Positions 1 to 13,348 of a stretch of 13,348 nt of DNA are shown piece by piece (position 1 is the stretch's first letter; each line of letters starts with the position of its first letter). A program made the position numbers and the translations under genes. This stretch comes from a virus. Taxonomy: Duplodnaviria > Heunggongvirae > Uroviricota > Caudoviricetes. Under the pieces are notes generated by a model. That model did not search any database. It was not told the origin of the DNA and saw only the letters and a program-made list of their open reading frames with translations. Where the stretch lies: IMG/VR virus record IMGVR_UViG_2565956618_000002, one strand, 5' to 3'.

Positions 1-547
1 CGCACTCATCACCGCGATAGGTCCAGGTGCAGGTGTTGGCCAGCATGATACGTCCCGGAAAAACAGCGCCGTCCGTTTCCGTCGGCGTGGACAGTACAAA
101 AGAGGCACTCACCGCGCTCAGTTCGCTGCACTGCTCAATGCGCCAGCGGCTGATCACCTCCTGCTCCGGATCGGCGTCGCTGTTTCCGTTGACGAAGTTC
201 ACCGCATCCAGAAAACGGGCGTAAACCTTACGCCTGACCACCGTTCCGCCGACCAGACTCTGCAGATCTTCCACCATCCCGGTGACCATACCGTACAGGT
301 TAGAAACCGTCAGTGTCGGACGGGCAGCACTGCCCTTGCCGTTCAGTTCAAATCCCGTCCCCTGAATGGGGTATACCTGATACTGCCGCCCCTGCCAGAT
401 AACCGGCTCACCTTTTTCGTTCTGCTCATTACAGAAAAAATAACGTTCACCACCGACCTCTGTCAGATCGATTTCCCAGAGCACCACCTGGGCTGACTGA
501 GTGAGGCGTGTCGTCTCATGATGTGTTTCCTGTGGAATATCCTGCAT
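1..547 (-). CDS. L: Minor tail protein L (tail tip assembly), N-terminal part only; gene continues past the window start
   Basis: ATG at 547..545 preceded by AGGAGG. Manual translation gives MQDIPQETHHETTRLTQSAQVVLWEIDLTEVGGERYFFCNEQNEKGEP..., near-identical to lambda gpL as recalled. Follows M as in lambda. The ORF track misses it because there is no stop inside the window. Confidence 0.9.
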   Translation of the reverse strand, partial: MQDIPQETHHETTRLTQSAQVVLWEIDLTEVGGERYFFCNEQNEKGEPVIWQGRQYQVYPIQGTGFELNGKGSAARPTLTVSNLYGMVTGMVEDLQSLVGGTVVRRKVYARFLDAVNFVNGNSDADPEQEVISRWRIEQCSELSAVSASFVLSTPTETDGAVFPGRIMLANTCTWTYRGDEC

Positions 548-556
548 CAGAGCCTC

Positions 557-886
557 CTATGCCACGACCTGTTCAAAATCTGCCGTTATGGTTACCCACA
601 GCGCCCCCACGCTTGCCGACCATTTACGACAAACCACCCTGATCGGTTTCCAGTCATAAGGTGGCGTCCACTGAAATGCACGGACGCCACCGTGCCGTTC
701 CAGAAAGGCTTTTAAAGATGGGTGGTCACATTTACGAACACGTATCGTCACGCTGTAAGTCGACAACTGGTTATTCAGTCCCGCCGCACGACGCTGTTCA
801 TAACCATCGCCCAGCTTCACTGTCACCACTTTCGGCTCTGATACCACATTCATATCCGGGCGCACTTTCCAGTGAAACGTCTCCAT
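557..886 (-). CDS. M: Minor tail protein M
   Basis: 109-aa ORF (METFHWKVRPDMNVV...WTPPYDW...FEQVVA), same length as lambda gpM and clearly homologous. Its ATG overlaps the H stop codon (TAATG). Confidence 0.92.
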   Translation of the reverse strand: METFHWKVRPDMNVVSEPKVVTVKLGDGYEQRRAAGLNNQLSTYSVTIRVRKCDHPSLKAFLERHGGVRAFQWTPPYDWKPIRVVCRKWSASVGALWVTITADFEQVVA

Positions 887-3800
887 TACCGATATGCTCC
901 ACTTAACCGACCACCATCACGGGCCTGCTGTTGCATAAAGTCCGCTGCCGCTTTTTTCCCGAGGTCATAAACCGCCTTCAGGGCAGCCGGACCTATCTGC
1001 CCGTTCGTGCCATCGTTATTGATCTCGATGTTGTACTGCGGGGCAAACATCGCCATACCTGAACCACCAATATCCGCCACAACCCCCAGCTTACCGTCAG
1101 CACCACGACGCAGTGGCAGAATGGCTTCAGGTCCCGCTTCCCCCATCACACCCGCGCCTTTTGCAAAAGCAAAAAACGTCGGACGGTTAACCACCGTGCC
1201 ACTGTAACGACTCAAATCAGCAGACTGATAAATCCCCCCATTGGCATTCAGGGAAAGGCTGCTGAGATCAAATCCCAGTACACTGCCAATCCCTTTTATC
1301 GATTTCATCATGGTTGCCTGCGCCAGGATTTTCGCCATATCTGACAGCACAGAAGAGGTGAAGGATTTGAAATTGAGTTTGCCGGTAGTGACAAAAGTTG
1401 CCAGGCCATTTCCCATGTTGCTGAAGGCTGACGAGAACACCTGTTCTGCTGTTCCTGCCGTATTATCTGCATCCACGGTAAAATTCTGAAATGCACGCAG
1501 GACTCCGTTTTTCCAGTTACCCTGCACAACTTCAAGCTGTTGCCAGTAACGGCGATTCTCATTCAGTTGTCGGTTCAGGCTCTCCGTCAGCGCCTGCTCG
1601 GCCTTTCTGTAGTCATCCGTGTTATATGTTCCTTTCTGCTCACTATCCCGCCTCAACTGCTCCAGCTGTTGCTGGTATTTCTGGCGAAGACTCAGTTGTA
1701 CCTGATATCGCTGCCGCTGCTGATCACCCATACCCACCGTGGCGATATCCAGGTCATGTTGCTGACGCTGAGCGCGCTCTTCTTCAGCCAGTTGACTGGT
1801 CAGCTGAATTGTTTTTTTCTTCAGCTCGTTGAGTGCCGTCTGTTTCTGAAGCTCCTGCTGTTTTACATCCAGCAGCGTCAGTGCCTGAATCAGTTCATCT
1901 TTACGGGCCAGCACACTCTTTTCATCTGCCGTCAGTTTTTTCCCGTCCAGGTCGCTGATGCGCTGCTGCAGAGCCAGAAGCTGTTTATGCGCTTCTGTCA
2001 TCCTTTCCGTGGCAATGCCTGCTGACTGTCTGGCAGCAGCAATCTGTCCTTCCACCTGTGCCTGTTGCTGACTGTACTGCAGCAATAACCGGGTGGCCTC
2101 ATCATTACGGGGTTCGCGTGTTTTTTTCTTACCGGATGCCAGGGCTTTCTCGTAACGTTCATTTTCACGTTGTATCGCCGCATCCCTGACAGCCTGATCG
2201 GCGTACTGCATGGAATTAATACGCGCAATTTCACGCTGATGTCGTGCTGCTTCCGTTTCATTCATCCGGTTCAGTGCAGCATTTTCAGCATTACGGCGTT
2301 TCTGTTGCTCCTGATAATTCTGCTCTGCCTGCTCTTTTGCATCCTGCAAATCCTTCTGGCGTTTTTTCTCCTGAAGCTCGTTAAGACGCTGCTGATCGTA
2401 CTCAACCTGAGAAGATGATGCCGTCCAGGGGAGTCTTTTCGCCCGCGACACTTTCTCCTGTAAAGCGGAAATCTGTTCATCCAGCGAGTCTTCACGACCA
2501 ATATTCATGGCCGCATCCCAGAAACGACTCCATAAATCAGACAGATACTTCAGCGTACTGCCCAGCGCATTGAGGTTATTATCAATATCCGCAGTACGCC
2601 GACCGGTTTCCTCTGCCAGTGCAGACATGGCTATCCGTGCCGCATCACTGGACCGCCCCTGTTCCCCAAGGACGCGTATCTGCTCAAGCTGAGTGGCAGT
2701 AAGAAAATGCAGCTCATTGTCCAGAGCCTTCGCGGCATTTACAGGATCATCCTTCAGCCGCTTAAACTGATTTATGGTATCGCTGACCGACTGGCCAACC
2801 GATCGCTCCATCTGTGCGGCAGCTCTCGCCACCATACCGATATCGTTTCCACGAAATGCACCACTCCCCACCACCTGAGCCAGCGCACCGGCTGCAGCAT
2901 GTTGCGTGATACCATTCCCGGAAATAGCACGACTGAGCGTCCACAGCTGCCCGGCAGTGACTCCGGCATAATGCCCCGTCAGCGACAACTGGCGGTTAAA
3001 TTCTTCCCCCTCCTTCTGACCATCATACCAGGCTTTACCCAGACCATAGACGGCCGCGGCAATACCGCCAATAACCCCGCCCAGCATCATGCCTTTCGGT
3101 GACATCAGTGTGTCTATCCATCCGGCACGGTTAGCCAGCGTTATCCCGGATCCCCTCAGCGCACCTAAATTGCCGCGAGCCAGTTCAACTATCAGAACGC
3201 CTATCTCCTGGCGGGCCGCTGCACTTTTCAGACCCAGCGAATGCGTGGCTTTTCCTGCCTGCTCCATTTTGCGGATATACACTTCTGCAGCACTGCTTAC
3301 CCCCAGCTGGGCAGCCTTAGCACGAAGCAACTCAGAAGAAGAAAGATTCTGGCGGGTTGCCTGCTCTTTAAGCTGACGGATAAACGCCACTTTCTGTCGG
3401 GTAGCCTCTTCCTCAGCCTGTGTAAGAACACGGGTTTTCGCAGTAACCTCAGAAATCAGCGCCAGATAATCCTGCTGACCAATCCCGCCACTGTTTCTGG
3501 CCTGTCGGATCTGCTGCTGAATACGCTGTAATTCCTGCAGCCCCGCACTGGCCTGTTTCACACTGTCAATCTGACGATAAAACGCAGCAGCCGCTTTATC
3601 CTGAGCCTCCGCCAGAGCCATGGCCTGCGCCTGTTCCTCGCGCATTTTCTGGCTCAGTGCCTCCATGCGCTGGCGGGTTTTCTCCACCTCGCGGGCCATG
3701 CGTTCATGAGCCTGTGCGTTCTTCTCCACCGTCTGCGCATGGACGGATGCGGCTGTTGCAGCCGAAGAAGCTGCCTGCGTTGTCTGCCGGGCGGCCTGAG

Positions 3801-3951
3801 TCTGACGCTCCATAAAACGCTGCATACGGGCAGAAGACCGTTCTGCATCGCTGGCTGCACCATTCAGAAGGTTTTTGATACGGGGAATTTCATTTTTAAA
3901 CTCTGCCGCATCAATCCCCAAATCAATGACCAGGTTGGCTATCTGGTCCAT
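886..3951 (-). CDS. H: Tail tape measure protein (lambda gpH-like), about 1021 aa
   Basis: Long ORF. N-terminus MDQIANLVIDLGIDAAEF resembles lambda H MAEPVGDLVVDLSLDAARF; C-terminus INNDGTNGQIGPAALKAVYD...RDGG closely matches the lambda H C-terminus; centre is Q/E/R/K-rich coiled coil. Start placed at ATG 3951 (GGAGG upstream); the track's 3981 start is a TTG extension. Confidence 0.9.
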   Translation of the reverse strand: MDQIANLVIDLGIDAAEFKNEIPRIKNLLNGAASDAERSSARMQRFMERQTQAARQTTQAASSAATAASVHAQTVEKNAQAHERMAREVEKTRQRMEALSQKMREEQAQAMALAEAQDKAAAAFYRQIDSVKQASAGLQELQRIQQQIRQARNSGGIGQQDYLALISEVTAKTRVLTQAEEEATRQKVAFIRQLKEQATRQNLSSSELLRAKAAQLGVSSAAEVYIRKMEQAGKATHSLGLKSAAARQEIGVLIVELARGNLGALRGSGITLANRAGWIDTLMSPKGMMLGGVIGGIAAAVYGLGKAWYDGQKEGEEFNRQLSLTGHYAGVTAGQLWTLSRAISGNGITQHAAAGALAQVVGSGAFRGNDIGMVARAAAQMERSVGQSVSDTINQFKRLKDDPVNAAKALDNELHFLTATQLEQIRVLGEQGRSSDAARIAMSALAEETGRRTADIDNNLNALGSTLKYLSDLWSRFWDAAMNIGREDSLDEQISALQEKVSRAKRLPWTASSSQVEYDQQRLNELQEKKRQKDLQDAKEQAEQNYQEQQKRRNAENAALNRMNETEAARHQREIARINSMQYADQAVRDAAIQRENERYEKALASGKKKTREPRNDEATRLLLQYSQQQAQVEGQIAAARQSAGIATERMTEAHKQLLALQQRISDLDGKKLTADEKSVLARKDELIQALTLLDVKQQELQKQTALNELKKKTIQLTSQLAEEERAQRQQHDLDIATVGMGDQQRQRYQVQLSLRQKYQQQLEQLRRDSEQKGTYNTDDYRKAEQALTESLNRQLNENRRYWQQLEVVQGNWKNGVLRAFQNFTVDADNTAGTAEQVFSSAFSNMGNGLATFVTTGKLNFKSFTSSVLSDMAKILAQATMMKSIKGIGSVLGFDLSSLSLNANGGIYQSADLSRYSGTVVNRPTFFAFAKGAGVMGEAGPEAILPLRRGADGKLGVVADIGGSGMAMFAPQYNIEINNDGTNGQIGPAALKAVYDLGKKAAADFMQQQARDGGRLSGAYR

Positions 3952-4650
3952 AACGCACACCTCCGGAAATACCTTCCCCAAGATGCATCAGTTCTTCGTC
4001 CGTTCGCTCCGGTATCCCGTTCTCTTCCGGTAAAAGGCTGAAATCAGCCACCGCAGCATCACTGCTACCGGACACCATTCTCACGATCAATGCCTTCAGC
4101 GAGGCAAACTGCGCATCCATCCACACATCACTGAAGCTCTGCATCCGGAAATAATCGCCCCACTCACCAAGCTCAGTGGCCGACATTTCCGACAGCATCC
4201 GCCGCCAGTCTGCCCGCCGGAACTCCCGGGCAAGCCGCATGACAAACTGCATTTCCCGCGTCAGGACTTTTCCGGCGTCAGCACCTCATGCTCCAAATCC
4301 CCGGCATTCTCAATGACTCCCATACCGCTCAGCGACAGAACCATCTCCGCCCCCGCTCCCAGGGCATCATACGACCATGTTGTAATAACGGATGCGCAAA
4401 GCGTCTCAACATCCTGAGACTGTTCCGCATTCCACAGTGAGCGGGAAACCAGCCAGGCATTGATATCCATCCCCATCCGCAGAAAAGCAATCTGTCGTTC
4501 AGCCTCCGGCAGTTCTCCCTCTTCGGCATCAAACTTTGCCGTTCGCTGCTGAACAAACGCCAGATATTCAATTCTCTGCAGCCCGGACAGCTCACTGAGC
4601 ACCACGGACTGCTTTTCATAATTAAACGTGCCCTGTTTCAGAAACATCAT
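3923..4650 (-). CDS. Tail assembly chaperone G-T fusion made by programmed -1 frameshift near the end of G
   Basis: The T-frame ORF (MQFVMRLAREFRR...) is open upstream through the G stop in the -1 frame. Reading GGA AAA GTC CTG ACG CGG GAA ATG CAG... joins the frames at the run GGAAAAG (plus-strand 4267..4273). Position and arrangement match lambda G/GT. Confidence 0.7.
4261..4650 (-). CDS. G: Tail assembly chaperone G
   Basis: MMFLKQGTFNYEKQSVVLSELSGLQRIEYLA... resembles lambda gpG (MFLKTESFEHNGVTVTLSELSALQRIEHLA...). ATG at 4650 with GGAG upstream; the track start at 4689 is a TTG extension. Confidence 0.85.
   Translation of the reverse strand: MMFLKQGTFNYEKQSVVLSELSGLQRIEYLAFVQQRTAKFDAEEGELPEAERQIAFLRMGMDINAWLVSRSLWNAEQSQDVETLCASVITTWSYDALGAGAEMVLSLSGMGVIENAGDLEHEVLTPEKS
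4267..4273 (-). other. Candidate -1 frameshift slippery site GGAAAAG
   Basis: Minus strand reads ACG CCG GAA AAG TCC TGA in the G frame; the T frame is GGA AAA GTC.... Lambda uses GGGAAAG at the equivalent place. Confidence 0.5.
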
Positions 4651-4662
4651 GTTCTCCACCTG

Positions 4663-4688
4663 CAAAAAAGCCCCGGATAACCGGGGCA
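4663..4688 (-). terminator. Candidate intrinsic terminator between V and G
   Basis: Minus strand reads GCCCCGG-TTAT-CCGGGGC followed by TTTTTTG: a 7-bp GC-rich stem, 4-nt loop and T-tract just after the V stop. Confidence 0.6.
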
Positions 4689-4707
4689 AATGATGAGTAT
4701 CGTCCTG

Positions 4708-5451
4708 TTAACCTGCGGCGCTGACAGCCACCGCAGCCACTGCCACAAAATCGCCGTCAGAAGTCATGCCCACAATGCTGACACTGCCCTGCTTCACGCC
4801 TTTCACCGTGGCCACAAGCCCGTTCAGGGTCACCGTGGCAGTCTGTGGATCTGTCGAATGCACACTGATCGCTTTGTCACTGGCTCCGTCAGGTTTTACT
4901 GTAAAGGTCAGCGTGGTGGTTGCTCCCACTTTTACACTGGCAGATGCCGGTGCCACCGTCAGCCCGGTAACGCTCACTGTTTCAGTGCCTTCCTCTGCCA
5001 GATACGGACGCCCCACACCGCTGATTTTCACTGTGCGGGTCATCACGTCTTTTGAGGCAATGGTTTTACCCAGTGAGCTCAGCCAGCCACGGAAAACATC
5101 AACAGTGCCGTTGGGATATTTGATACGAAACGCGCAGACTTCACCGGAGTCGAACAACTGAACCAGTTTTTTCTGCCCGCTGTCACCCGGACGCCAGGCC
5201 AGCGTCGCCGAAGTATCACCGACGGATTTCTGCCCCTGGGTTGTCGTTTTCCAGTCTGCATCTTCATCATCGAGATAAGTGTCATCTTCTGCATCAGCGG
5301 TCATTTCGCCAGGTTGCAGATCCTTCACCATCGCAAGACGCAGCCAGTCAGTGTCCGATAAAGGGTTCGCAAACGCATCGCCCTTGCCGGTGTACATCCA
5401 GAACGTCGTTCCCGCACCTTTCGTTTTTGCCAGTGGATTTGGTGTGGTCAT
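4708..5451 (-). CDS. V: Major tail protein V with C-terminal Ig-like domain
   Basis: MTTPNPLAKTKGAGTTFWMYTGKGDAFANPLSDTDW...LDDEDADW...YPNGTVDVFRGW... closely matches lambda gpV. ATG at 5451 with AGGAGGT 5 nt upstream; the track start at 5457 is GTG. Confidence 0.93.
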   Translation of the reverse strand: MTTPNPLAKTKGAGTTFWMYTGKGDAFANPLSDTDWLRLAMVKDLQPGEMTADAEDDTYLDDEDADWKTTTQGQKSVGDTSATLAWRPGDSGQKKLVQLFDSGEVCAFRIKYPNGTVDVFRGWLSSLGKTIASKDVMTRTVKISGVGRPYLAEEGTETVSVTGLTVAPASASVKVGATTTLTFTVKPDGASDKAISVHSTDPQTATVTLNGLVATVKGVKQGSVSIVGMTSDGDFVAVAAVAVSAAG

Positions 5452-5462
5452 TGCCACCTCCT

Positions 5463-5876
5463 TTAATTCGTGTACGTGATCTGGTACGTGATTTCCGCCA
5501 TCGCCCAGGTGGCCATCTCATTATCACGTTGATAGTTAAAACCGAGAGGGATCAGGGTGTCGATGAGTCCGGAAAGTGCCGGTATATCATTCAGGGCCGG
5601 GAAAATGGTGCTCTCCATCCACATATCCAGCTCTGAATCCGGTGCCTGTGCCCGGATGAAGACAGCAATATGCAGAACAGCCTGCCAGTCATCTTCATCC
5701 GTCATTTTTCCGGTGTACTGAGCATCACTCAGCCACACCGCCACGGCAGGCAGTTCCTGCGCATCAATAAATGCCGGAAGCCCGTCAAAAAACGTGGCGC
5801 TGTCTCCACACTGTTCCCGAAGGCGTGCCAGTACGGCCTGGCGGATTTGTGTATGTCGGTTCATCGGGTCAGCCAT
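5463..5876 (-). CDS. U: Tail terminator protein U
   Basis: ...ATFFDGLPAFIDAQELPAVAVWLSDAQYTG...PDSELDMWMES...DIPALSGLI...ITYQITY matches lambda gpU. ATG at 5876 (GAGG upstream); an alternative ATG at 5864 overlaps the Z stop as ATGA. Confidence 0.9.
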   Translation of the reverse strand: MADPMNRHTQIRQAVLARLREQCGDSATFFDGLPAFIDAQELPAVAVWLSDAQYTGKMTDEDDWQAVLHIAVFIRAQAPDSELDMWMESTIFPALNDIPALSGLIDTLIPLGFNYQRDNEMATWAMAEITYQITYTN

Positions 5877-6439
5877 AACCTCAGTTGTTGTTTCAGTGCA
5901 TACCCCAGCTGTTTCGGCATTTCCGCAGCAATAATGCGGTCGCGGGCATCTTCAAATGCCTGTGTCAGCGGTCCGGACAGCGGGACTTTCACCACATCAA
6001 TGGGGTAACGATTTTTGCCATCAATACGCCGCATCACATGCCAGCGACCATTCGCCAGTTGCTGAATAAACGCATCCCGGAAAAGATATTTACCCACCTT
6101 CAGCACACTGCCACGGTACTGCAGTTTTCCACCACGCCGGGCCAGTCTGACCCGGGCTGTCCCCAGCTTAATAGCGGGCAGATTGCCCCGGTTAACGCGG
6201 ATCCTGGCCGTCATTTTTCCTGACGGACTGGCTTTAAACACCCGGACACGCTGACGTACCAGTTTCAGGGGGATCCCTTTCACCTGGTTATCTCCCGCAA
6301 CGGTATTCCCGGCAACCTGCCGGGTGGCGACCGAGACCGCTTTCTGTGCCACACGGTTTATCGCCCATGCGCTGGCCTGTGGCACCATACGGGTATCAAG
6401 GCTGTTCAGATTACGGATGGCATTCTCAAGCCCCTTCAT
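5861..6439 (-). CDS. Z: Minor tail protein Z-like (tail completion)
   Basis: 192 aa, the same length as lambda gpZ, and in the lambda Z position between FII-like and U. ATG at 6439 with AGAGGTG upstream. Confidence 0.7.
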   Translation of the reverse strand: MKGLENAIRNLNSLDTRMVPQASAWAINRVAQKAVSVATRQVAGNTVAGDNQVKGIPLKLVRQRVRVFKASPSGKMTARIRVNRGNLPAIKLGTARVRLARRGGKLQYRGSVLKVGKYLFRDAFIQQLANGRWHVMRRIDGKNRYPIDVVKVPLSGPLTQAFEDARDRIIAAEMPKQLGYALKQQLRLWLTR

Positions 6440-6450
6440 CCCACACCTCT

Positions 6451-6726
6451 TTACTCAATAAAGATCATTGGCTTACCGTTAAAACGTTCATGCCGTGTGA
6501 CCGTCCATTGTTGTCCGTCATAAACAACGCGATCCCCGCGCCGTGGGCGGTATCCCGAAGAAAACACCACCAGAGAGACCGCAGGTCCGGACAGAGCATT
6601 CAGCTCTGCCAGTGTTTCTCCCGGGATCACAGTCATATCGACATCATTAATCGAGGCTGTCTTTCCCATCTTTCTAACCGTGATAGCATCCATACGCGCT
6701 GCCAGCCGGGAAAAGGGATCAGACAT
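6451..6726 (-). CDS. Head-tail joining protein (lambda FII-like)
   Basis: 91 aa. MSDPFSRLAARMDAITVRKMGKTASI... and ...RRGDRVVYDGQQWTV resemble lambda FII (MADFDNLFDAAIARADETIRGYMG..., ...RRGDTLTIGEENFWV) as recalled. Sits between head genes and Z. Confidence 0.65.
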   Translation of the reverse strand: MSDPFSRLAARMDAITVRKMGKTASINDVDMTVIPGETLAELNALSGPAVSLVVFSSGYRPRRGDRVVYDGQQWTVTRHERFNGKPMIFIE

Positions 6727-7042
6727 TGAGTTTTACCGGCACTTCTTCTGCACTGGTTCCGGCATCTGCCCAGACAACCCCGACCAGCGGATCAGAGCCG
6801 CTGTTAGTCAGCTGAACTTTTCCGGACTTCAGATAAACCTTCTTACCCGTTTTCATGTCATCCGTTTTCAGCTTAGGCAGCATAAACACACCTTCGGTCA
6901 TGCCGTCGCCTGTTTCACCCTGTGGAATATCGGTCAGCGCCACCGCAAAAACATCGCCCACCTGCACCAGATCTCCGCTGCTGATGGCTGCACTGGCAAC
7001 AATCGCCACCGTTTTTCCTTCTTCTACAAAATTCTTTGCCAT
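6719..7042 (-). CDS. Small head-associated protein (DUF2190-like), function unclear
   Basis: 108 aa from ATG 7042 (MAKNFVEEGKT...), GGAG upstream. Immediately downstream of the capsid gene, where such small proteins commonly sit in HK97-like head modules. Assignment by position and composition only. Confidence 0.55.
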   Translation of the reverse strand: MAKNFVEEGKTVAIVASAAISSGDLVQVGDVFAVALTDIPQGETGDGMTEGVFMLPKLKTDDMKTGKKVYLKSGKVQLTNSGSDPLVGVVWADAGTSAEEVPVKLNV

Positions 7043-7084
7043 AACTGTCTCCGCACAGCCCCGTTCAGGGGCTGATTTCAGGTA

Positions 7085-7106
7085 CAAAAAAAGCCCTTAC
7101 GGGCCA
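7085..7106 (-). terminator. Candidate intrinsic terminator or attenuator after the capsid gene
   Basis: Minus strand reads GCCCGTAAGGGC followed by TTTTTTTGTAC, about 25 nt after the capsid stop (7129). Short 4-bp stem, so weak. Confidence 0.45.
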
Positions 7107-7128
7107 TCAGAGTTGTTGTCTGCGACGT

Positions 7129-9087
7129 TTACGCCGTACATTTCACCAGACCGCGGTGATCAACTGGCGCGACACCGGCGTCAATACGCACTTTCGTTGT
7201 CACGCCATCCACACTGAAGCCCTCCATCTGATCAATATATGGCGTATCCACACCGTTGAGATAAGCCACTTCAATCGTATCGGAGCCTTTTGACGCAGCC
7301 AGGTAGAAGGTGGTCTGGCTGTTATCATCAAGACGAGGCTCTGCAATAACGGTCGCAAAATCTTTCACCGGGTTAATAATACCGGCGTTAATGTCAGCCC
7401 CCTTGACACTTGAGGAGCGAATGACCTGGTTAGCAACAGACTCCATCGCCGTCGGTACCAGTACGAACGCAGGACGAATATTCAGATGACGCTCCCCCTC
7501 TTTCTGAACGCGCATCAACTGGCGGGCTTTATCCAGCGATGCCACGTCCATTGCAGCGCTCTCCAGTACGTTTGCATGTTTCGCTTTATCGAACAGACTT
7601 ACATTATCTGTGGAGATTTTCGGGTTAGACGTCAGAATGGCATAAACCAGATCGGCAATAGTGGATTTCGCCGCACGGCCCAGTTTCATCGGGACATCGG
7701 TCAGCATATTCAGATCATCATTGATAATGGCCTGACGGGTGATACTGAACAGCTCGCCATAGGTCGCCAGTGCAATAGTGGCCTGTTTATCTCCGGTGGT
7801 GACGTATTTATATTCCGCCCCTTCACGCACCTGACGCAGAGCACTGAAGCCCCCCATACCCACACGATGGGCAATTTTAAAATCAGACAACTGACCTTTC
7901 CGCGTCCACTGTTCATAGGTTTCAGGGGCATCTTCCCAGCCCTGCAGAATGGCTTTGTTCGCAACATCCAGCAGAATATTACCGAAGTCAGACGTACTGT
8001 GTGTGAACGCCGCACCGACCATCTGCATCGGGTTATAACCGGAAACCCCAATACCCCGTTCAGTTAGTGACATACGGGCATATTCACGCAGGGTCATCCC
8101 GTTGTAGACATTATCACGTTCGGTTTTTTCAAATCCGGCACGCGCCATCAGCGCCTGGCGGATCCCGTCCCCCACAAAATTACCGTTACCGGCATAAATA
8201 TGAGCCGGGGTATTTTTATTGGATGGCGTGGACTCGCGCCCCATCTCGTTCAACAGCTTTTCACGGGCCTGCTCCAGCGAACATTCAGGATCGGCAAGAC
8301 ACTGGGCCTGCAGCATCTGATAACGCCCGCCAAACATGGCAAACAGATCATTAATACCGTTTACACGCGCTTTTTGCTCTGCCAGTACCTGCGCACGGAT
8401 ACTGTTTTCATCCACCACGGGTGCTGCTGCCTGCACTGGCGTCCGGGAGGCTGCAGGTTCATCATCCTGTACGCGTGGAGCACTGTTGCGTGGCGGAGTA
8501 ATCATGTTTCGAATGGATTCCGGCATCTTTTTAAATTCCTCTGTACGTTTTGACTGAATACATGCCATTGCCTTAACGGCTGGTGTCACCTGATCAGCAA
8601 ATCCCTGTGCCAGACATTCGGCACCGGACATCCAGGTCTCATCCGCCAGCATGGCAGCAATTTCATCGGTGGTTTTCCCGGTTTTCTGTGCATAAGCGGG
8701 TAACAGAACCGCCTCAACTTTATCGAGCAGGTCGGCATAGGTGCGCATGTCCTCCGCATCACCGCCCGTAAAGCCAAATGGTTTATGAATCATCATGAAG
8801 GAGTTTTCCGGCATAATGACCGGGTTTCCCACCATCGCAATGACCGACGCCATTGACGCCGCCACACCGTCGACATAAACGGTAATGGACGCACCATGTG
8901 TTTTCAGTGCATTAAAAATGGCGATGCCTTCAAAGACATCGCCACCCGGTGAATTAATATGGAGATTAATGTGGGTGATATCGCCCAGTGCATTCAGATC
9001 ACTGATAAACTGCTTCGCTGTAACACCCCAGAAACCAATCTCGTCATAAATATAAATATCCGCGTCACTCTGGTGACCTGCCTGCAT
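7129..9087 (-). CDS. Prohead protease (ClpP-like) fused in frame to an HK97-fold major capsid protein
   Basis: N-terminal part has ClpP-like motifs (IYIYDEIGFWGVTAKQFISDL, INSPGGDVFEGIAIFNA, GVAASMASVIAMVG, MIHKP); C-terminal ~340 aa has major-capsid character. Start tentatively ATG 9087 (MQAGHQSDADIYIY), about 652 aa; weak RBS, so the start is uncertain. Confidence 0.8.
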   Translation of the reverse strand: MQAGHQSDADIYIYDEIGFWGVTAKQFISDLNALGDITHINLHINSPGGDVFEGIAIFNALKTHGASITVYVDGVAASMASVIAMVGNPVIMPENSFMMIHKPFGFTGGDAEDMRTYADLLDKVEAVLLPAYAQKTGKTTDEIAAMLADETWMSGAECLAQGFADQVTPAVKAMACIQSKRTEEFKKMPESIRNMITPPRNSAPRVQDDEPAASRTPVQAAAPVVDENSIRAQVLAEQKARVNGINDLFAMFGGRYQMLQAQCLADPECSLEQAREKLLNEMGRESTPSNKNTPAHIYAGNGNFVGDGIRQALMARAGFEKTERDNVYNGMTLREYARMSLTERGIGVSGYNPMQMVGAAFTHSTSDFGNILLDVANKAILQGWEDAPETYEQWTRKGQLSDFKIAHRVGMGGFSALRQVREGAEYKYVTTGDKQATIALATYGELFSITRQAIINDDLNMLTDVPMKLGRAAKSTIADLVYAILTSNPKISTDNVSLFDKAKHANVLESAAMDVASLDKARQLMRVQKEGERHLNIRPAFVLVPTAMESVANQVIRSSSVKGADINAGIINPVKDFATVIAEPRLDDNSQTTFYLAASKGSDTIEVAYLNGVDTPYIDQMEGFSVDGVTTKVRIDAGVAPVDHRGLVKCTA

Positions 9088-9100
9088 CCTGAACCAGGAA

Positions 9101-10609
9101 TTATTCTTCGGACTGGTCGTCGGTGTGCTGCGGCTCCTGTCGTTTCGTTGCGGCACTGCTGCCTCCTTTATCACTGGCCGGATCGGTATCAAATACCAGA
9201 TCCAGCTTGCGGTTTTCATCAATTTCGGCCTTGCGCCGACGTTTGACATCATCCGGATTACGACCACCTGCACGTACCCAGTCTGATTCTGTCGCCGCTC
9301 CACCACGAATCTGAATTTTCCAGGCCTCAGCCTCCTTAACAGGGTCAATCCACGGCATCACCGGTCCGGAATACACCGCGGTATACAGTGAAGATCGGTC
9401 CAGATCGCGGGGTAGCCTGATAACACCGGATGCCACAGCCTGTTTCAGCCAGGCACGGTACATCGGGCGGGTGACGGCACCAATAAACCAGTCCTGCAGG
9501 ATCAGGTAGCCATCAGTAGATTCAACCAGCTCCTGACGCTGGGCGCTGTAAGTGCCGTTATAGTTGCGCGCTGTACTGGAAAAACTCAGACGACTGCCCG
9601 CAGCCACGGCACGCAACTGACCATTACGAAAAGTTTCAAGGTTAGGATTGGGGCGATCCGACTTCACCATTCCGATTTCTTCGCCGGGTTTCAGATCGTC
9701 GTAAATAATGCCTGGCTGAATGGTAAGCTCGCGTTCATTCTCCTTGCTGTCATTACCATCCGTTTCATAGCTCTGTCCGTCGCCTTTCCGGATGTACATC
9801 CCCAGAGCAGCGGCGATCCTTGCTGCAGTCAGCTCAGAATCTTCATACTCTTTCAGAGCACTGAGGCGGATCAGCACACCGGACAACAAAGACGTCCCGC
9901 GCATCTGGTGCAGACGGCGAACAAATTTAAGATGCAGCATTCGCTCTGCATCCACTTCTTTGGTTTCCATCTGCCGCCCGGATACGGGACGGCTTTTATA
10001 CACCAGATATTTTTCGGGACGCCCCCAGTCATCAACAAACACGCCCTGATTCAGCCTGTTGCTCTCATCACTGGTCATGGGAATAAAGTCCGGCTCGAGC
10101 GCCTCCAGCCAGAAATGAACACCGGCAGAAGGCGTCAAGCTGTTTATGCGCCCGGAAACCATCTGGGCAAACACCTCACCATCGCGCAGCCAGGTACGCA
10201 GCATCAGACGTTCCAGCATCGGACGGGTAAACTGCCCGGTGACTTCCGGACTGACAGACCATTCACTCCATCGGGTGCGTATCTCCGCTGCCAGATCACG
10301 GGCAATGGCCCCATTGCGTAATACCGGATGTGGCTCGACAATAATCCCGTTTTTCCCCACCACCCGTTCTTCCAGCTTGTCAAATACACCAATGACCAGA
10401 TCGTGGTTGTTATCAAGGTAACGGGCCTGCTCACGTAACGACACGGCCCCGTACTGGCTTAACTGGTCGGCAGTTCGGTTCTCCCGTCGGGCTTTGTGTG
10501 TCCGCGTCGTTTTTACGGCCTCATAAGCCTGAATCACCGCACGGGAACGCAGCCTTGCCGCTTTCCATCCTGGTGAAAAAACGCCAATCACATCATCAAG
10601 AATTGCCAT
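9101..10609 (-). CDS. Portal protein
   Basis: About 503-aa ORF between the gpW-like gene and the protease/capsid gene. ATG at 10609 overlaps the W stop (TGATG). Not similar to lambda gpB by eye, so the call rests on position and size. Confidence 0.8.
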   Translation of the reverse strand: MAILDDVIGVFSPGWKAARLRSRAVIQAYEAVKTTRTHKARRENRTADQLSQYGAVSLREQARYLDNNHDLVIGVFDKLEERVVGKNGIIVEPHPVLRNGAIARDLAAEIRTRWSEWSVSPEVTGQFTRPMLERLMLRTWLRDGEVFAQMVSGRINSLTPSAGVHFWLEALEPDFIPMTSDESNRLNQGVFVDDWGRPEKYLVYKSRPVSGRQMETKEVDAERMLHLKFVRRLHQMRGTSLLSGVLIRLSALKEYEDSELTAARIAAALGMYIRKGDGQSYETDGNDSKENERELTIQPGIIYDDLKPGEEIGMVKSDRPNPNLETFRNGQLRAVAAGSRLSFSSTARNYNGTYSAQRQELVESTDGYLILQDWFIGAVTRPMYRAWLKQAVASGVIRLPRDLDRSSLYTAVYSGPVMPWIDPVKEAEAWKIQIRGGAATESDWVRAGGRNPDDVKRRRKAEIDENRKLDLVFDTDPASDKGGSSAATKRQEPQHTDDQSEE

Positions 10610-10821
10610 CAGAACCTCGCCAGCCGGTACCCGGGATGCCCCCGTCGTCGTGTAATCAGAGCCGCAAGGCGGCGCTCCCACTCCTGCCGTCCCTGCCGGA
10701 TCTCAGATAAGTTTTCCATGGTCATCTGCTGACCATTAAAAGTGACGGATTTTCCGTCCAGCACCGCCATTTCAGCTTCCGTATAACGCTGAATCATGGC
10801 TTCAATATCATTCTGATTCAT
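10609..10821 (-). CDS. W: Head completion / head-tail joining protein, lambda gpW-like
   Basis: 70 aa from ATG 10821 (GGAGG 6 nt upstream). C-terminus ...ITRRRGHPGYRLARF resembles lambda gpW ...TQRRRGPAGFYV. Its ATG overlaps the terminase stop (ATGA). Confidence 0.75.
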   Translation of the reverse strand: MNQNDIEAMIQRYTEAEMAVLDGKSVTFNGQQMTMENLSEIRQGRQEWERRLAALITRRRGHPGYRLARF

Positions 10822-12650
10822 AACCATCCTCCGGAAGTCAGCCAGGGGTTAACATCGTCAGTTACTGTTTTCTTCCGTTTTTGTTTTTTAACAGGCGTGG
10901 ATACCGGCTCCGGTGAGGGTGACGGTTCGGTACTGTCCGGGACACACTCCAGCCAGGTTTCCCGGCTCGCCCACTCCGGTGCATCCGGCCAGCGGATCTT
11001 TTCGTATCCATGCAGAATGACCAGCGCCTCGGCATACACCATCAGGTCAAAAGCTTCGTTGGCACCGCGACCCGGCTTACTCCATTTCCCGTCACTGCTC
11101 CGCTCTTCATACGTCAGTTCGTCGTAAAACCAGCTCCCCAGCCAGTCAGGGAAATGCACATAGCCTGGACCTGGCGAGTCACGCCATAACGCGTTATTCA
11201 CCCGGTCTTTCAGGGCATCCGTCTGAAGAAGCCAGAGCGGCACATCACCTGCGGCCTGCGCCCGGCGGCCCGTTCGTCCGGTGTTATCAGGGAATGTACG
11301 GCTGATCAGTTTTGCGCGCCGGATGCTGTCGCCCTTAAACAGGTAAATACGTTTACCAAGGCCATCACGACGGCAACGACGCCAGAATTTATAGGCATTA
11401 TCAGTGACCCCGTCTTCACCGCCGGAATCCACCGCCATTGCCATCAGTCGCATTTGTTGAGAAGGATCGGAGGCCAGCGGCCAGCTTTTATGAAAAACAT
11501 CCGTCAGCAGGACATCCCAGTCTTCCGGATAGCTGGCCGGATCAATTCGCTGGCTCTCCCCGTCGCAGTCACTGCGCAATGACTGCGTGATGTTGTAACG
11601 ATCAATAATCCAGCGTTCGCCACGGCTGCCATAGCCCGTTACCTGAACCACAAAACGGCGATGACGTCCCGCCTGCACATCCACTGTCGCCACAAGGAAA
11701 TTAACGCCATCCGGAACACTGCGGGAAGGAACTGGCTCTGCCCGCTGCTCAAGCAGTTCACTTTTTCGTTGCTCCATGCTGGCACGAGGAAGATAAGGCA
11801 ATCCCCAGTCGGTGTTGATAACCGCCCTGAGTGTTTCTTCGCTTCCTGTCGCTTCATACTCCTGTTCTGCAGTCAGTAATTTGTAAACCAGTTGCGCCCA
11901 GGTCTGATACGCAGCAGCTGGCCCTTCCATCCAGAAACTGGCGATACGGGAGCGGCGCGGTTCACCGGAAACGTTGCCGTTACGATCAATGACCTGACCT
12001 TCACGTAACCAGACTCCTGCACTATTGAGCTCACGCTTTTTCTCCGCAGTGATAATGCCGCTGCAGTGCGGGCAAAGTAGATACGCCGCCTCACTGGCTT
12101 TAAAGGGATCCGGTTCATTACGGTAGCCGGTCATGGCATCCATAGCTGGCTGAAAATATTCACCGCAGTGCGGACATGGCCAGTACCAGCGGCGGCGGTC
12201 ACCACGATTGTAAAGGGAAAGAATACCAGTCGTCGGTGGCGCTTCATGAGGCGACTTACGTCGCCATTTGCTGTCGCAGATGTCACGTCCCGGCGAGCTC
12301 TCCACCAGAGTCATCCCGGCGGACATAAATGTGGTGGTACGTTTTGAGGCCAGGGAGAAACCATCACCCTCGCTGTCGATATTCTCCGGAAAACGGTCGT
12401 AATCGGTTAAGGCGACAAACCGGTAATCCGACGACGACATAATGTTGACCGAGGGCCAACCAATTTTAAGGAACGAGCCATCCCTGAACGTCTTATCATG
12501 GACATTATTGTCGTTACGACGTGGACTCATTCTTTTCTTTACCGCCGCACTGCTTCTGAACGTTCTGTCGAGGCGCTTTTTAGAATGCTCGCGGGCCTTA
12601 TCTGATGCGCCGCGCGATAAATGCACTCTATCTTGTGCGATAAATGGCAT
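10818..12650 (-). CDS. Large terminase subunit (lambda gpA family), apparently 5'-truncated and possibly inactive
   Basis: 610-aa ORF with strong gpA-like regions (WPCPHCGEYF zinc-finger-like motif as lambda ACPHCGEE; VALTDYDRF near the lambda Walker B VAGYDE). No P-loop/Walker A motif is present, and similarity starts around lambda residue ~95-125. The frame is closed 30 bp below the invertase stop. Confidence 0.85.
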   Translation of the reverse strand: MPFIAQDRVHLSRGASDKAREHSKKRLDRTFRSSAAVKKRMSPRRNDNNVHDKTFRDGSFLKIGWPSVNIMSSSDYRFVALTDYDRFPENIDSEGDGFSLASKRTTTFMSAGMTLVESSPGRDICDSKWRRKSPHEAPPTTGILSLYNRGDRRRWYWPCPHCGEYFQPAMDAMTGYRNEPDPFKASEAAYLLCPHCSGIITAEKKRELNSAGVWLREGQVIDRNGNVSGEPRRSRIASFWMEGPAAAYQTWAQLVYKLLTAEQEYEATGSEETLRAVINTDWGLPYLPRASMEQRKSELLEQRAEPVPSRSVPDGVNFLVATVDVQAGRHRRFVVQVTGYGSRGERWIIDRYNITQSLRSDCDGESQRIDPASYPEDWDVLLTDVFHKSWPLASDPSQQMRLMAMAVDSGGEDGVTDNAYKFWRRCRRDGLGKRIYLFKGDSIRRAKLISRTFPDNTGRTGRRAQAAGDVPLWLLQTDALKDRVNNALWRDSPGPGYVHFPDWLGSWFYDELTYEERSSDGKWSKPGRGANEAFDLMVYAEALVILHGYEKIRWPDAPEWASRETWLECVPDSTEPSPSPEPVSTPVKKQKRKKTVTDDVNPWLTSGGWL

Positions 12651-12680
12651 CCACGCGGCGTTTCATTATTTGAAAAAGAA

Positions 12681-13253
12681 TTACATTTCAGGTTGCGTTA
12701 TGACAGTCCCAACAGGGTGATAGCGGTAGATCGTTGACAGTCCAATATCATAGATAATTGCCAGCCGCTTTCTGTCATACCCTTTCTGGAGCAATCTTGC
12801 GATCTGCTCATGCTGCTCCTTCGTCAGTTTCGGGCGACGTCCTCCAACTCTTCCTTGTGCTCGCGCAGCAGCCAGTCCTGCCAGCGTGCGCTCAACTATC
12901 AGTTCACGCTCCATTTCTGCCAGTGCACCCATCATATGAAAAAAGAACCTTCCCATCGGAGTGCTGGTATCGATTGAATCCGTCAGACTGCGAAAATTGA
13001 CACCTTTTGCGCGTAGCTCTTCTGTGAGAGCAATGAGGTGTTTCATTCTTCTACCCAACCGATCCAGCTTCCAGACCACCAATGTATCCCCTCTTTTAAG
13101 GCACTTTAAAGCGCGTTTCAGGCCTGGTCGTTCCGACTTGGTTCCGCTCATTTTGTCCTCAAAAATCTGTTCACATCCTGCGCACATTAATGCATTGCGT
13201 TGCAAATCTGTGTTTTGGTCATTTGTTGACACACGTATGTAGCCAATCAGCAT
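12681..13253 (-). CDS. pin: Serine DNA invertase of the Pin/Gin/Hin/Cin family
   Basis: MLIGYIRVSTNDQNTDLQRNALMCAGCEQIFEDK...GDTLVVWKLDRLGR...GRFFFHMMGALAEMERELIVERTLAGLAAARAQGR.GGRRPKLT... is almost co-linear with e14 Pin and Salmonella Hin as recalled; catalytic Ser in YIRVST. ATG at 13253; the track's extension to 13343 starts at a non-ATG codon and is not used. Confidence 0.93.
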   Translation of the reverse strand: MLIGYIRVSTNDQNTDLQRNALMCAGCEQIFEDKMSGTKSERPGLKRALKCLKRGDTLVVWKLDRLGRRMKHLIALTEELRAKGVNFRSLTDSIDTSTPMGRFFFHMMGALAEMERELIVERTLAGLAAARAQGRVGGRRPKLTKEQHEQIARLLQKGYDRKRLAIIYDIGLSTIYRYHPVGTVITQPEM

Positions 13254-13307
13254 TAAAAATACTCCCTTTTGAGTGGTTAAAGTACTGAGATAATGTGGGG
13301 AGGATTT

Positions 13308-13333
13308 GAGAGATAAACGTTGGTTTGGGGGAA
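13308..13333 (-). other. Candidate invertase crossover site (hix/gix-like), about 55 bp upstream of pin
   Basis: Minus strand reads TTCCCCCAAACCAACGTTTATCTCTC; it matches hixL (TTCTTGAAAACCAAGGTTTTTGATAA) at 15 of 26 positions, including the AAACC-AA-(G)GTTT core. The right half is diverged. Confidence 0.3.
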
Positions 13334-13348
13334 GGCTCTGCATTGCCT

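What the first reader, a model, noticed from the sequence alone, without database searches (positions are those of the whole stretch)
4651..4707. Strong hairpin plus T-tract inside the late operon, between major tail protein V and G
GCCCCGG-TTAT-CCGGGGC-TTTTTT on the coding strand lies in the 56-bp V-G gap. In a Q-antiterminated late transcript it would be read through, but it could stabilise the upstream message or attenuate expression of G, G-T and H relative to V, which is needed in large excess.
Basis: seen in the sequence. Interest (0 to 1): 0.35.

Follow-up and report, generated by a model that had tools for sequence, protein, structure and literature searches.

The report
Terminator-like hairpin between tail genes V and G
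A textbook terminator-shaped RNA hairpin sits between the major tail tube gene and the next tail gene of a common E. coli lambda-like prophage; it is real and evolutionarily maintained, but it is an ordinary feature already annotated in public phage records, and what it does has never been measured.

Summary
On the minus (coding) strand, GCCCCGG-UUAU-CCGGGGC (4687..4670) followed by U6 (4669..4664) lies in the 57-nt spacer between V (4708..5451) and G (ATG 4650). It is the only strict terminator-type hit in the 13.3-kb window on either strand; shuffles give about 0.02 per window.

The identical element is already annotated as a rho-independent terminator in phages mEp460 and Ayreon, and phage N15 has an annotated stem-loop at the same junction.

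Across 63 distinct V-G junctions, 23 are short (2-23 nt, lambda included) with at most a trivial 4-6-bp stem. All 39 junctions of 30-80 nt carry a GC-rich hairpin, built from at least six unrelated stem sequences and gained or lost at least six times. About 40% of the hairpins have no U-tract, so the hairpin itself appears to be what is selected, not termination alone.

Most likely model: RNA polymerase modified by the antiterminator Q reads through, and the hairpin then acts as a 3' stability barrier or mild attenuator. For unmodified polymerase it is a stop. This is inferred, not shown.

Similar hairpins follow low-copy genes I and J, which weakens the "V needs excess" argument. In this window the operon is also cut off from Q.

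Low novelty, low interest.

The parts
4708..5451 (-). Major tail tube gene V. ATG at 5451; the mechanical ORF extends to a GTG at 5457; stop TAA at 4710..4708.
   Evidence: Pfam Phage_TTP_12 (6e-67) + Big_2; 99.6% identical to the Ayreon major tail protein.
4651..4707 (-). V-G intercistronic spacer, 57 nt (60 nt if G starts at the second ATG, 4647).
4670..4687 (-). RNA hairpin GCCCCGG-UUAU-CCGGGGC: 7 G-C pairs, 4-nt loop, dG about -15 to -16 kcal/mol.
   Evidence: The stem core CCCCG/CGGGG is invariant in 17 diverged relatives whose spacers otherwise average 62% column identity.
4664..4669 (-). U6 tract immediately 3' of the stem, completing an intrinsic-terminator motif.
   Evidence: T5-T7 throughout the E. 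coli branch, degenerate in the Salmonella/Citrobacter branch.
4654..4660 (-). Shine-Dalgarno sequence of G (GGUGGAG), 3 nt before the first ATG and 6 nt before the second.
   Evidence: Predicted weak pairing with UCAUUU upstream of the hairpin occurs in this lineage only.
4261..4650 (-). Tail assembly chaperone gene G, the first gene downstream of the hairpin.
   Evidence: Pfam Phage_TAC_2 7e-40.
3923..4252 (-). T reading frame (the G-T frameshift partner).
   Evidence: Pfam Phage_tail_T.
886..3981 (-). Tape measure gene H, given as the mechanical ORF; annotated relatives start about 30 nt further in.
   Evidence: Pfam TMP_2, TMP_4, Tape_meas_lam_C.
7086..7105 (-). Sister element: hairpin GGCCC-GUAA-GGGCU plus a T-run, just after the protease/capsid fusion gene (stop at 7131..7129).
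   Evidence: annotated as a terminator in Ayreon and mEp460.
7056..7074 (-). Second hairpin in the capsid-cement spacer, CAGCCCC-UGAAC-GGGGCUG, without a U-tract, just upstream of the next gene's SD.

Best explanation
The element is a canonical intrinsic-terminator-type RNA hairpin (7 G-C pairs, tetraloop, U6) in the V-G spacer of a lambdoid late operon. It belongs to a set of such 'punctuation' hairpins that occupy nearly every long intercistronic spacer of these operons.

In a functional phage, RNA polymerase modified by the antiterminator Q must read through it, because all remaining tail genes lie downstream without a promoter of their own (shown by gene layout). The hairpin then forms in the finished transcript. 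There it most likely acts as a barrier to 3'-to-5' exonucleases after downstream cleavage, and as a mild attenuator. The head-to-V part of the message would thereby outlast or outnumber the G/G-T/H part (inferred). For polymerase that lacks Q modification it should be an efficient stop (inferred from its sequence features).
For: The motif is real and non-random. It is the only strict hit in 13.3 kb, against 0.02 per shuffled window, it ranks top in the looser scan, and the hairpin dominates the fold.

Selection acts on the hairpin. In 17 diverged E. coli/Salmonella/Citrobacter spacers, all 10 positions of the stem core CCCCG/CGGGG are invariant; only one other column in the spacer is (mean column identity 62%). 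The outer pair switches G-C to A-U twice and to G-U twice.

The position recurs. All 39 distinct V-G spacers of 30-80 nt carry a GC-rich hairpin, 38 of 39 beating shuffles at p<=0.05. The 23 spacers of 2-23 nt have at most a trivial 4-6-bp stem (best -5.4 kcal/mol). Stems fall into at least six unrelated sequence families, and at least six gains or losses are needed on a V tree.

The hairpin is kept without a U-tract in 17 of 39 spacers, including the N15 type and the Salmonella branch. This points to a hairpin-dependent role that does not require termination.

Context: Q (PF03589) and a chain of terminator-like hairpins lie along the late path in Ayreon and in the 100%-identical ATCC 25922 prophage. 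Lambda has similar hairpins after D, E and I.

From established knowledge rather than tests here: intercistronic hairpins stabilise upstream mRNA segments in malE-malF and papB-papA, and Q-loaded polymerase ignores terminator hairpins.
Against: No transcript, 3'-end or half-life data exist for this phage group in the material I could search.

Lambda builds the same tail with a 15-nt spacer and no hairpin.

As I recall it, Sampson et al. 1988 (reference confirmed, text not readable) concluded that lambda late-gene ratios are set by translation initiation, not mRNA level.

Similar hairpins follow low-copy genes I and J.

Covariation inside the lineage is not statistically significant because the stem hardly varies.
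Confidence: 0.5

Rival explanations
1. Safety terminator. Its selected role is to stop any RNA polymerase not modified by Q (spurious internal initiation, or read-in from upstream accessory genes or flanking genes in the lysogen). Tail genes would then be expressed only in the Q-driven lytic programme. Effects on V:G stoichiometry would be incidental.
For: The terminator motif is complete and strong. T5-T7 is retained in every E. coli-branch variant. Terminator-like hairpins occur in every late-operon spacer over 30 nt irrespective of the abundance of the preceding gene product, including after I, J and lom. In this window a co-oriented recombinase gene abuts the truncated operon, with no terminator-like site between it and terL'.
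Against: 17 of 39 V-G hairpins lack a usable U-tract yet are conserved, which a pure termination role does not explain. Half of all lambda-type V-G junctions, lambda included, do without the hairpin.
Confidence: 0.25
2. Translational device. The inserted hairpin uncouples G translation from the heavily translated V, and/or helps mask the G Shine-Dalgarno sequence, lowering G, G-T and H synthesis at the ribosome level.
For: Short-spacer junctions place the G SD within 2-15 nt of the V stop, allowing coupling, whereas hairpin junctions separate them by 34-72 nt. In the window's own lineage the minimum-free-energy fold pairs UCAUUU with AGGUGG, and SD accessibility is 0.02-0.13 against about 0.3 for shuffled 5' flanks.
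Against: Across all 39 hairpin junctions, SD accessibility equals the control (0.30 against 0.30). Only one lineage shows the effect, and marginally (10 of 100 controls as low for the window). The extension helix is weak, rich in G-U pairs, and absent from the centroid structure.
Confidence: 0.08
3. Neutral relic. The hairpin is a leftover terminator from an excised accessory-gene insertion ('moron'), or a recombination scar at a module boundary, with no current function.
For: The V-G junction is an insertion point. Two Providencia prophages carry a 1.35-kb insert with a KilA-N/P63C ORF there, and a Serratia prophage has a 236-nt spacer. Presence is patchy, with at least six changes on the V tree.
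Against: The stem core is invariant while loop and flanks diverge to 62% mean identity. All 39 long spacers consist of little more than a hairpin plus an SD. Stem families of different sequence recur at the same spot. A neutral palindrome should decay.
Confidence: 0.1
4. DNA-level palindrome: a protein-binding or recombination site acting on double-stranded DNA rather than RNA.
For: It is a perfect 7-bp inverted repeat. The fold is equally stable on either strand.
Against: At least six unrelated stem sequences occupy the same position, which argues against sequence-specific recognition. The T-tract lies only on the transcribed side.
Confidence: 0.03

Closest known systems
Annotated 'rho-independent terminator' between the major tail protein and tail chaperone genes of phages mEp460 (JQ182728, 8751-8774) and Ayreon (MF807953, 8742-8782)
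   Same: It is the same element, with a 1-3 nt difference in the 57-nt spacer, at the same position in the same gene order.
   Different: Nothing substantive. Those annotations are computational and carry no experimental evidence.
Phage N15 stem_loop 9596-9613, 'putative rho-indep. transcription terminator', between gene 13 (V) and gene 14 (G)
   Same: Same junction in a homologous tail module, a GC-rich 6-bp hairpin with a tetraloop, and an SD a few nt downstream.
   Different: The stem sequence is unrelated (CGGGGC/GCCCCG). It is followed by UUCCCCCC rather than a U-tract, so it is unlikely to terminate. The spacer is 37 nt.
Intercistronic hairpins of the lambda late operon (after D, after E, between I and J)
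   Same: Terminator-shaped hairpins inside a Q-antiterminated operon that must be read through. The I-J hairpin is nearly identical in lambda and in the prophage matching the window.
   Different: Lambda has none at V-G, where its spacer is 15 nt.
Intra-operon attenuators and stabiliser hairpins after the abundantly needed cistron (papB-papA, malE-malF REP elements, rplL-rpoB attenuator, T7 T-phi after gene 10). These are cited from general knowledge.
   Same: A hairpin directly 3' of the gene for the major structural subunit, with obligatory partial read-through into genes needed in lower amounts.
   Different: Those cases have mapped 3' ends, half-lives or termination efficiencies. Here nothing has been measured, and read-through is presumably provided by Q rather than by terminator leakiness.
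[quoted passage not shown]
   Same: The same positional logic in an unrelated siphovirus: a 12-bp stem plus TTTCT after the major tail subunit gene.
   Different: Different host, different tail protein family, no Q system; it too is only predicted.

Membership tests
Intrinsic (Rho-independent) terminator | GC-rich stem of about 5-14 bp with a short loop | tested here: met
   7 G-C pairs, 4-nt loop, dG -15 to -16 kcal/mol.
Intrinsic (Rho-independent) terminator | U-tract immediately 3' of the stem on the transcribed strand | tested here: met
   U6 at 4669..4664, directly abutting the stem. The opposite strand has no T-tract.
Intrinsic (Rho-independent) terminator | Release of transcripts by RNA polymerase at the U-tract, in vitro or in vivo | not testable with these tools
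   No transcript data were found in the literature searches.
Q-antiterminated lambdoid late operon (context) | Q gene and late promoter upstream, co-oriented with the lysis and structural genes | tested here: inconclusive
   Met in Ayreon (Q = PF03589) and in the 100%-identical ATCC 25922 prophage. Not met inside this window, where homology stops at 12603 and a recombinase gene follows.
Q-antiterminated lambdoid late operon (context) | Essential genes downstream of internal terminators with no promoter of their own | tested here: met
   G, T, H, M and L lie downstream on the same strand. No promoter-like site lies between the hairpin and H on the minus strand; the three weak matches in the window lie elsewhere.
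Intercistronic mRNA-stabilising hairpin (3' exonuclease barrier) | Hairpin conserved independently of a U-tract at the 3' end of a cistron | tested here: met
   17 of 39 V-G hairpins have 4 or fewer T in the next 8 nt. The stem core is invariant while T-tracts decay.
Intercistronic mRNA-stabilising hairpin (3' exonuclease barrier) | Processed 3' ends at the hairpin and a longer half-life for the upstream segment | not testable with these tools
   Requires 3'-end mapping and a rifampicin chase.
Moron (independent accessory gene cassette) | Own promoter plus ORF plus terminator inserted between two phage genes | tested here: not met
   The spacer is 57 nt, with no ORF and no promoter-like site. 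True insertions at this junction exist in Providencia prophages.
Any curated Rfam RNA family | Covariance-model score at or above the gathering threshold | tested here: not met
   There were 0 hits at gathering thresholds in the window. The only sub-threshold hit is SgrS at 16.5 bits against a threshold of 37.
SD-sequestering translational operator | Conserved anti-SD pairing that lowers SD accessibility | tested here: not met
   Mean SD accessibility is 0.30 against 0.30 in flank-shuffled controls over 39 junctions. Only the window's own lineage deviates.

The most novel reading that the evidence does not exclude
The V-G hairpin is one instance of a convergently acquired 'punctuation code' that does not depend on termination. 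On this reading, lambdoid late operons repeatedly insert unrelated GC hairpins at the same intercistronic positions (after capsid, after V, before J) to segment a 20-kb antiterminated transcript into pieces of different stability, and this sets virion protein stoichiometry at the mRNA level. Lineages without the V-G hairpin, such as lambda, would compensate by translational coupling.
Probability: 0.25. Interest if true: 0.45.

Novelty: already known. Interest (0 to 1): 0.2.

Why it matters
If the stabiliser or attenuator role were demonstrated, it would add an mRNA-level layer to the classical view that lambda late-protein ratios are set by translation initiation. It would also explain why terminator-shaped hairpins persist inside operons whose polymerase ignores terminators. 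On the practical side, these hairpins are compact, portable elements for tuning expression within synthetic operons. They are also relevant to annotation, because a 'terminator' inside a late operon should not be read as an operon boundary. As it stands, the finding is a correct spotting of a common, already annotated feature.

Tried and rejected
- Rfam. Nothing reached gathering thresholds. A sub-threshold SgrS hit (16.5 of 37 bits) is merely the terminator hairpin.
- SD-masking / anti-SD model. It was prompted by the minimum-free-energy folds and tested on 39 junctions against flank-shuffled controls. There is no general effect (0.30 against 0.30). Only the window's own lineage is low, which counts as one evolutionary event. 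Rejected as the general mechanism.
- Formal covariation in the E. coli/Salmonella lineage. Not significant (covariation score 0.098 against 0.083; 110 of 500 shuffles as high), because the stem core never varies. The evidence is therefore conservation plus between-lineage replacement, not within-lineage covariation.
- Whole-spacer folding z-score. It is weak (-1.97; -1.23 for 161 nt), so I used a motif-specific shuffle test instead.
- Internal promoter or moron in the spacer. None.
- Literature. Ten searches found no 3'-end mapping or RNA-seq analysis of this junction in any lambdoid phage. The LF82/Tritos paper uses prophage transcriptomes but not at this resolution. Sampson 1988, Liu 2013 and Casjens & Hendrix 2015 could not be opened.
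- A single-protein scan of viral contigs returned only relatives of 99-100% identity. That was useful for micro-variation but not for comparison, so I switched to tblastn against phages, one genome per species, and intermediate homologues.

Full report
**What is there.** All genes in the window run on the minus strand.
- The ORF at 4708..5457 (probable ATG at 5451) is the major tail tube protein V: Pfam Phage_TTP_12 at 6e-67, plus a C-terminal Big_2 domain.
- 4261..4650 is the tail assembly chaperone G (Phage_TAC_2).
- 3923..4252 is the T frame, and 886..3981 is the tape measure H.
- Upstream lie U, Z, a Gifsy-2-family head-tail protein, a cement/decoration protein, a ClpP-protease/capsid fusion, the portal and the large terminase.

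The spacer between the V stop (TAA, 4710..4708) and the G ATG (4650) is 57 nt, or 60 nt to the second ATG that PGAP prefers. On the coding strand it reads CAGGACGAUACUCAUCAUUU-GCCCCGG-UUAU-CCGGGGC-UUUUUU-GCAGGUGGAGAAC-AUG.

**Is it more than chance?** The isolated stem-loop has dG -15.0 kcal/mol, and the centroid fold of the spacer is that hairpin alone at -16.2.

The folding z-score of the whole spacer is unimpressive (-1.97), because GC-rich shuffles also fold. I therefore tested the motif itself. With at least 6 perfect pairs, a loop of 3-8 nt and at least 5 T in the next 7 nt, this is the only hit in the 13.3-kb window on either strand. Dinucleotide shuffles give 0.02 such sites per window at dG <= -15, in 1 of 100 shuffles.

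It is also the top site of the looser consensus scan, with 7 of 7 G-C pairs. On the plus strand the same hairpin is followed by AAAUGAUGAG, so it is a one-way element co-oriented with the operon. No Rfam family matches.

**Where the window comes from.** The V-G region is 97-99.7% identical to phages Ayreon, mEp460, cdtI, Tritos and others. Positions 1..12603 of the window are 100% identical to a prophage of E. coli ATCC 25922 and related strains, and 4457 of 5426 complete E. coli genomes match at least part of the window.

Two of these phage records already annotate this very hairpin: 'terminator' in Ayreon (8742-8782) and 'rho-independent terminator' in mEp460 (8751-8774). In phage N15, a stem-loop 'putative rho-indep. 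transcription terminator' is annotated at the homologous gene 13/gene 14 junction. The feature is thus already in the public record, though only as a prediction.

**Comparison across relatives.** I collected V-G junctions from four sources:
- annotated phages;
- one genome per bacterial species;
- intermediate V homologues;
- close viral contigs.

After removing duplicates there are 63 distinct junctions, and they are sharply bimodal.

Twenty-three have spacers of 2-23 nt that hold only a Shine-Dalgarno sequence. In the region scanned, 7 of them show no more than a trivial 4-6-bp stem (best -5.4 kcal/mol), partly made of V coding sequence and the SD. Examples are lambda (15 nt), phi80 and mEp213 (10 nt), Stx phages (13 nt) and Vibrio phages (2-4 nt).

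Thirty-nine have spacers of 30-80 nt, and every one contains a GC-rich hairpin of dG -7 to -15. Of these, 38 beat their own shuffles at p<=0.05, with a median p of 0.003. The extra length of the spacer is essentially the hairpin.

The stems fall into at least six unrelated families:
- (G/A)CCCCG(G)...(C)CGGGG(C/U) in E. coli, Salmonella and Citrobacter;
- (C)GGGGC...GCCCC(G) in N15, Kluyvera, Trabulsiella, Buttiauxella, Kosakonia, Atlantibacter and Leclercia;
- AGCCACA...UGUGGCU in Providencia and a Buttiauxella metagenome-assembled genome;
- GGCUCC...GGAGCC in Kluyvera and Klebsiella;
- AAAGCCCC...GGGGCUUU in Ewingella;
- GCCCCAC...GUGGGGC in Symbiopectobacterium.

On a neighbour-joining tree of V N-terminal domains, hairpin presence needs at least six state changes. 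That tree is a rough tool, given phage mosaicism.

**What is conserved.** In an alignment of 17 distinct spacers from the window's own lineage (V 70-100% identical), all 10 positions of the stem core CCCCG...CGGGG are invariant. Only one other column in the spacer is invariant, and mean column identity is 62%.
- The loop varies: UUAU, UCAU, UAUG, UUCG, GUUC, ACUC, UCUGU, AAAGA, GUGC.
- The outer pair changes G-C to A-U twice and to G-U twice.
- The formal covariation statistic is not significant, because the core never varies. The argument therefore rests on conservation within the lineage and wholesale replacement between lineages.

The U-tract is not uniformly kept. It is T5-T7 in every E. 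coli-branch variant, but UUCUAU, AUCUUC, UUUAC or UUUG in the Salmonella/Citrobacter branch. It is absent in the whole N15-type family, where the tails are C/U-rich, such as UUCCCCCC. Overall 22 of 39 hairpins have at least 5 T in the next 8 nt, and 17 have 4 or fewer.

A hairpin that persists where termination is no longer plausible points to a role for the RNA hairpin itself. Termination would then be an additional property of some versions, the window's included.

**Operon context.** Ayreon has a Q antiterminator (Pfam PF03589) followed by several annotated terminators, the lysis genes and then the structural genes. The ATCC 25922 prophage has the same layout.

In that prophage, every late-operon spacer longer than 30 nt holds a terminator-shaped hairpin: after Q, after the capsid gene (two hairpins), after V, between I and J, after J and after lom. 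Lambda itself has such hairpins after D, after E, between I and J and after lom, but not after V.

Because G, T, H, M, L, K, I and J are needed for a tail and no promoter-like site lies between the hairpin and H on the coding strand, a working phage must read through this site. That much follows from the layout. That Q provides the read-through is inferred from what is known of lambdoid late transcription.

**Mechanism.** My best reading, at confidence about 0.5, has three parts.
- Q-loaded polymerase passes the site.
- The hairpin then folds in the completed RNA and serves as a 3'-exonuclease barrier after downstream cleavage, and perhaps as a mild attenuator. This would raise the level of the head-to-V segment relative to G/G-T/H.
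- Unmodified polymerase terminates there.

This mirrors well-studied intra-operon hairpins (papB-papA, malE-malF, the rplL-rpoB attenuator, T7 T-phi), which I cite from general knowledge.

Four points count against it:
- there are no transcript data;
- lambda manages without the hairpin;
- as I recall it, Sampson et al. 1988 (reference verified, text unavailable) attributed lambda late-protein ratios to translation initiation;
- similar hairpins follow the low-copy genes I and J, so 'after the abundant gene' is not the whole rule.

The main rival (0.25) is a safety terminator that keeps tail genes strictly Q-dependent. It fits the complete terminator motif and the hairpins after I, J and lom, but not the conserved U-less hairpins.

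A translational role (0.08) was tested. SD accessibility in the 39 hairpin junctions equals that of flank-shuffled controls (0.30 against 0.30). Only the window's own lineage shows a weak UCAUUU/AGGUGG pairing.

A neutral relic of an accessory-gene insertion (0.10) fits the fact that the junction is an insertion point: two Providencia prophages carry a 1.35-kb KilA-N/P63C insert there. It does not fit the invariant stem. A DNA-level palindrome (0.03) is unlikely, given the unrelated stems found at the same place.

**A caveat specific to this window.** Homology to the lambdoid prophages ends at 12603. Beyond it, 12604..13348 carries a co-oriented serine recombinase/invertase gene (Resolvase + HTH_7) that is 99.6% identical to segments of P2/P88-like prophages. 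The large terminase gene is truncated at its 5' end, its ATPase-domain match beginning at profile position 66.

None of the 5426 complete E. coli genomes spans this junction. In this copy the late operon is therefore separated from terS, the lysis genes, Q and the late promoter. The copy is a defective remnant, a rare rearrangement or an assembly chimera. If the junction is real, the capsid and V hairpins here would simply act as terminators for any read-in transcription.

**Verdict.** The element is a conserved, recurrent but ordinary piece of late-operon punctuation that is already annotated in public records. Novelty: already known. Interest: about 0.2. The bimodal, convergent pattern at V-G junctions and the retention of U-less hairpins are the only mildly new points. 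They make the stabiliser-versus-terminator question cleanly testable.

Noticed in passing
window 12604..13348 (ORF 12681..13343, minus strand) and 10818..12650: A serine recombinase/DNA invertase gene (Resolvase + HTH_7), 99.6% identical to P2/P88-like prophage segments, is joined head-to-tail to a 5'-truncated large terminase gene. Lambdoid homology stops at 12603, and no complete E. coli genome out of 5426 spans the junction. This copy is therefore a defective prophage remnant, a rare rearrangement or an assembly chimera.
   Followed up: partly
window 7043..7128 (minus strand): The 86-nt spacer after the protease/capsid fusion gene holds two hairpins. GGCCC-GUAA-GGGCU plus a T-run lies at 7105..7086 and is annotated as a terminator in Ayreon and mEp460. 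CAGCCCC-UGAAC-GGGGCUG lies at 7074..7056, has no U-tract, and sits just before the next gene's SD.
   Followed up: partly
L188 (E. coli ATCC 25922 prophage) and L189 (lambda): Every late-operon spacer over 30 nt in the ATCC 25922 prophage carries a terminator-shaped hairpin: after Q, capsid, V, I, J and lom. Lambda has them after D, E, I and lom but not after V. The I-J hairpin is almost identical in the two phages.
   Followed up: partly
L160 2308..3663 and L163 (Providencia alcalifaciens / P. rustigianii prophages): A 1.35-kb insertion encoding a KilA-N + P63C domain protein sits exactly in the V-G junction, so this junction is also an insertion site for accessory genes. A Serratia prophage (L172) has a 236-nt spacer beginning with an 11-bp hairpin plus T7.
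   Followed up: partly
window about 4262..4280 (minus strand): The end of G lacks lambda's GGGAAAG slippery heptamer. The sequence there is CCGGAAAAGUCCUGA, so the G-T frameshift site of this phage group must differ from lambda's.
   Followed up: no
L128-L141, L151, L166, L171 (genome-contig hits): Representative 'genomes' of unrelated taxa (Pseudomonas, Neobacillus, Oceanobacillus, Kitasatospora, Shewanella, Chromatium, Leeuwenhoekiella and others) contain V-G DNA whose V and G proteins are mostly 100% identical to lambda's (V 92-100%). Many sit on short contigs with coverage near 1x. This is almost certainly lambda control-DNA contamination of those assemblies.
   Followed up: no
P0001-P0012: Several database 'proteins' of 331-396 aa fuse U+V or V+G Pfam domains. 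These are probably gene-calling read-throughs or frameshifted assemblies across these short junctions, not real fusions.
   Followed up: no
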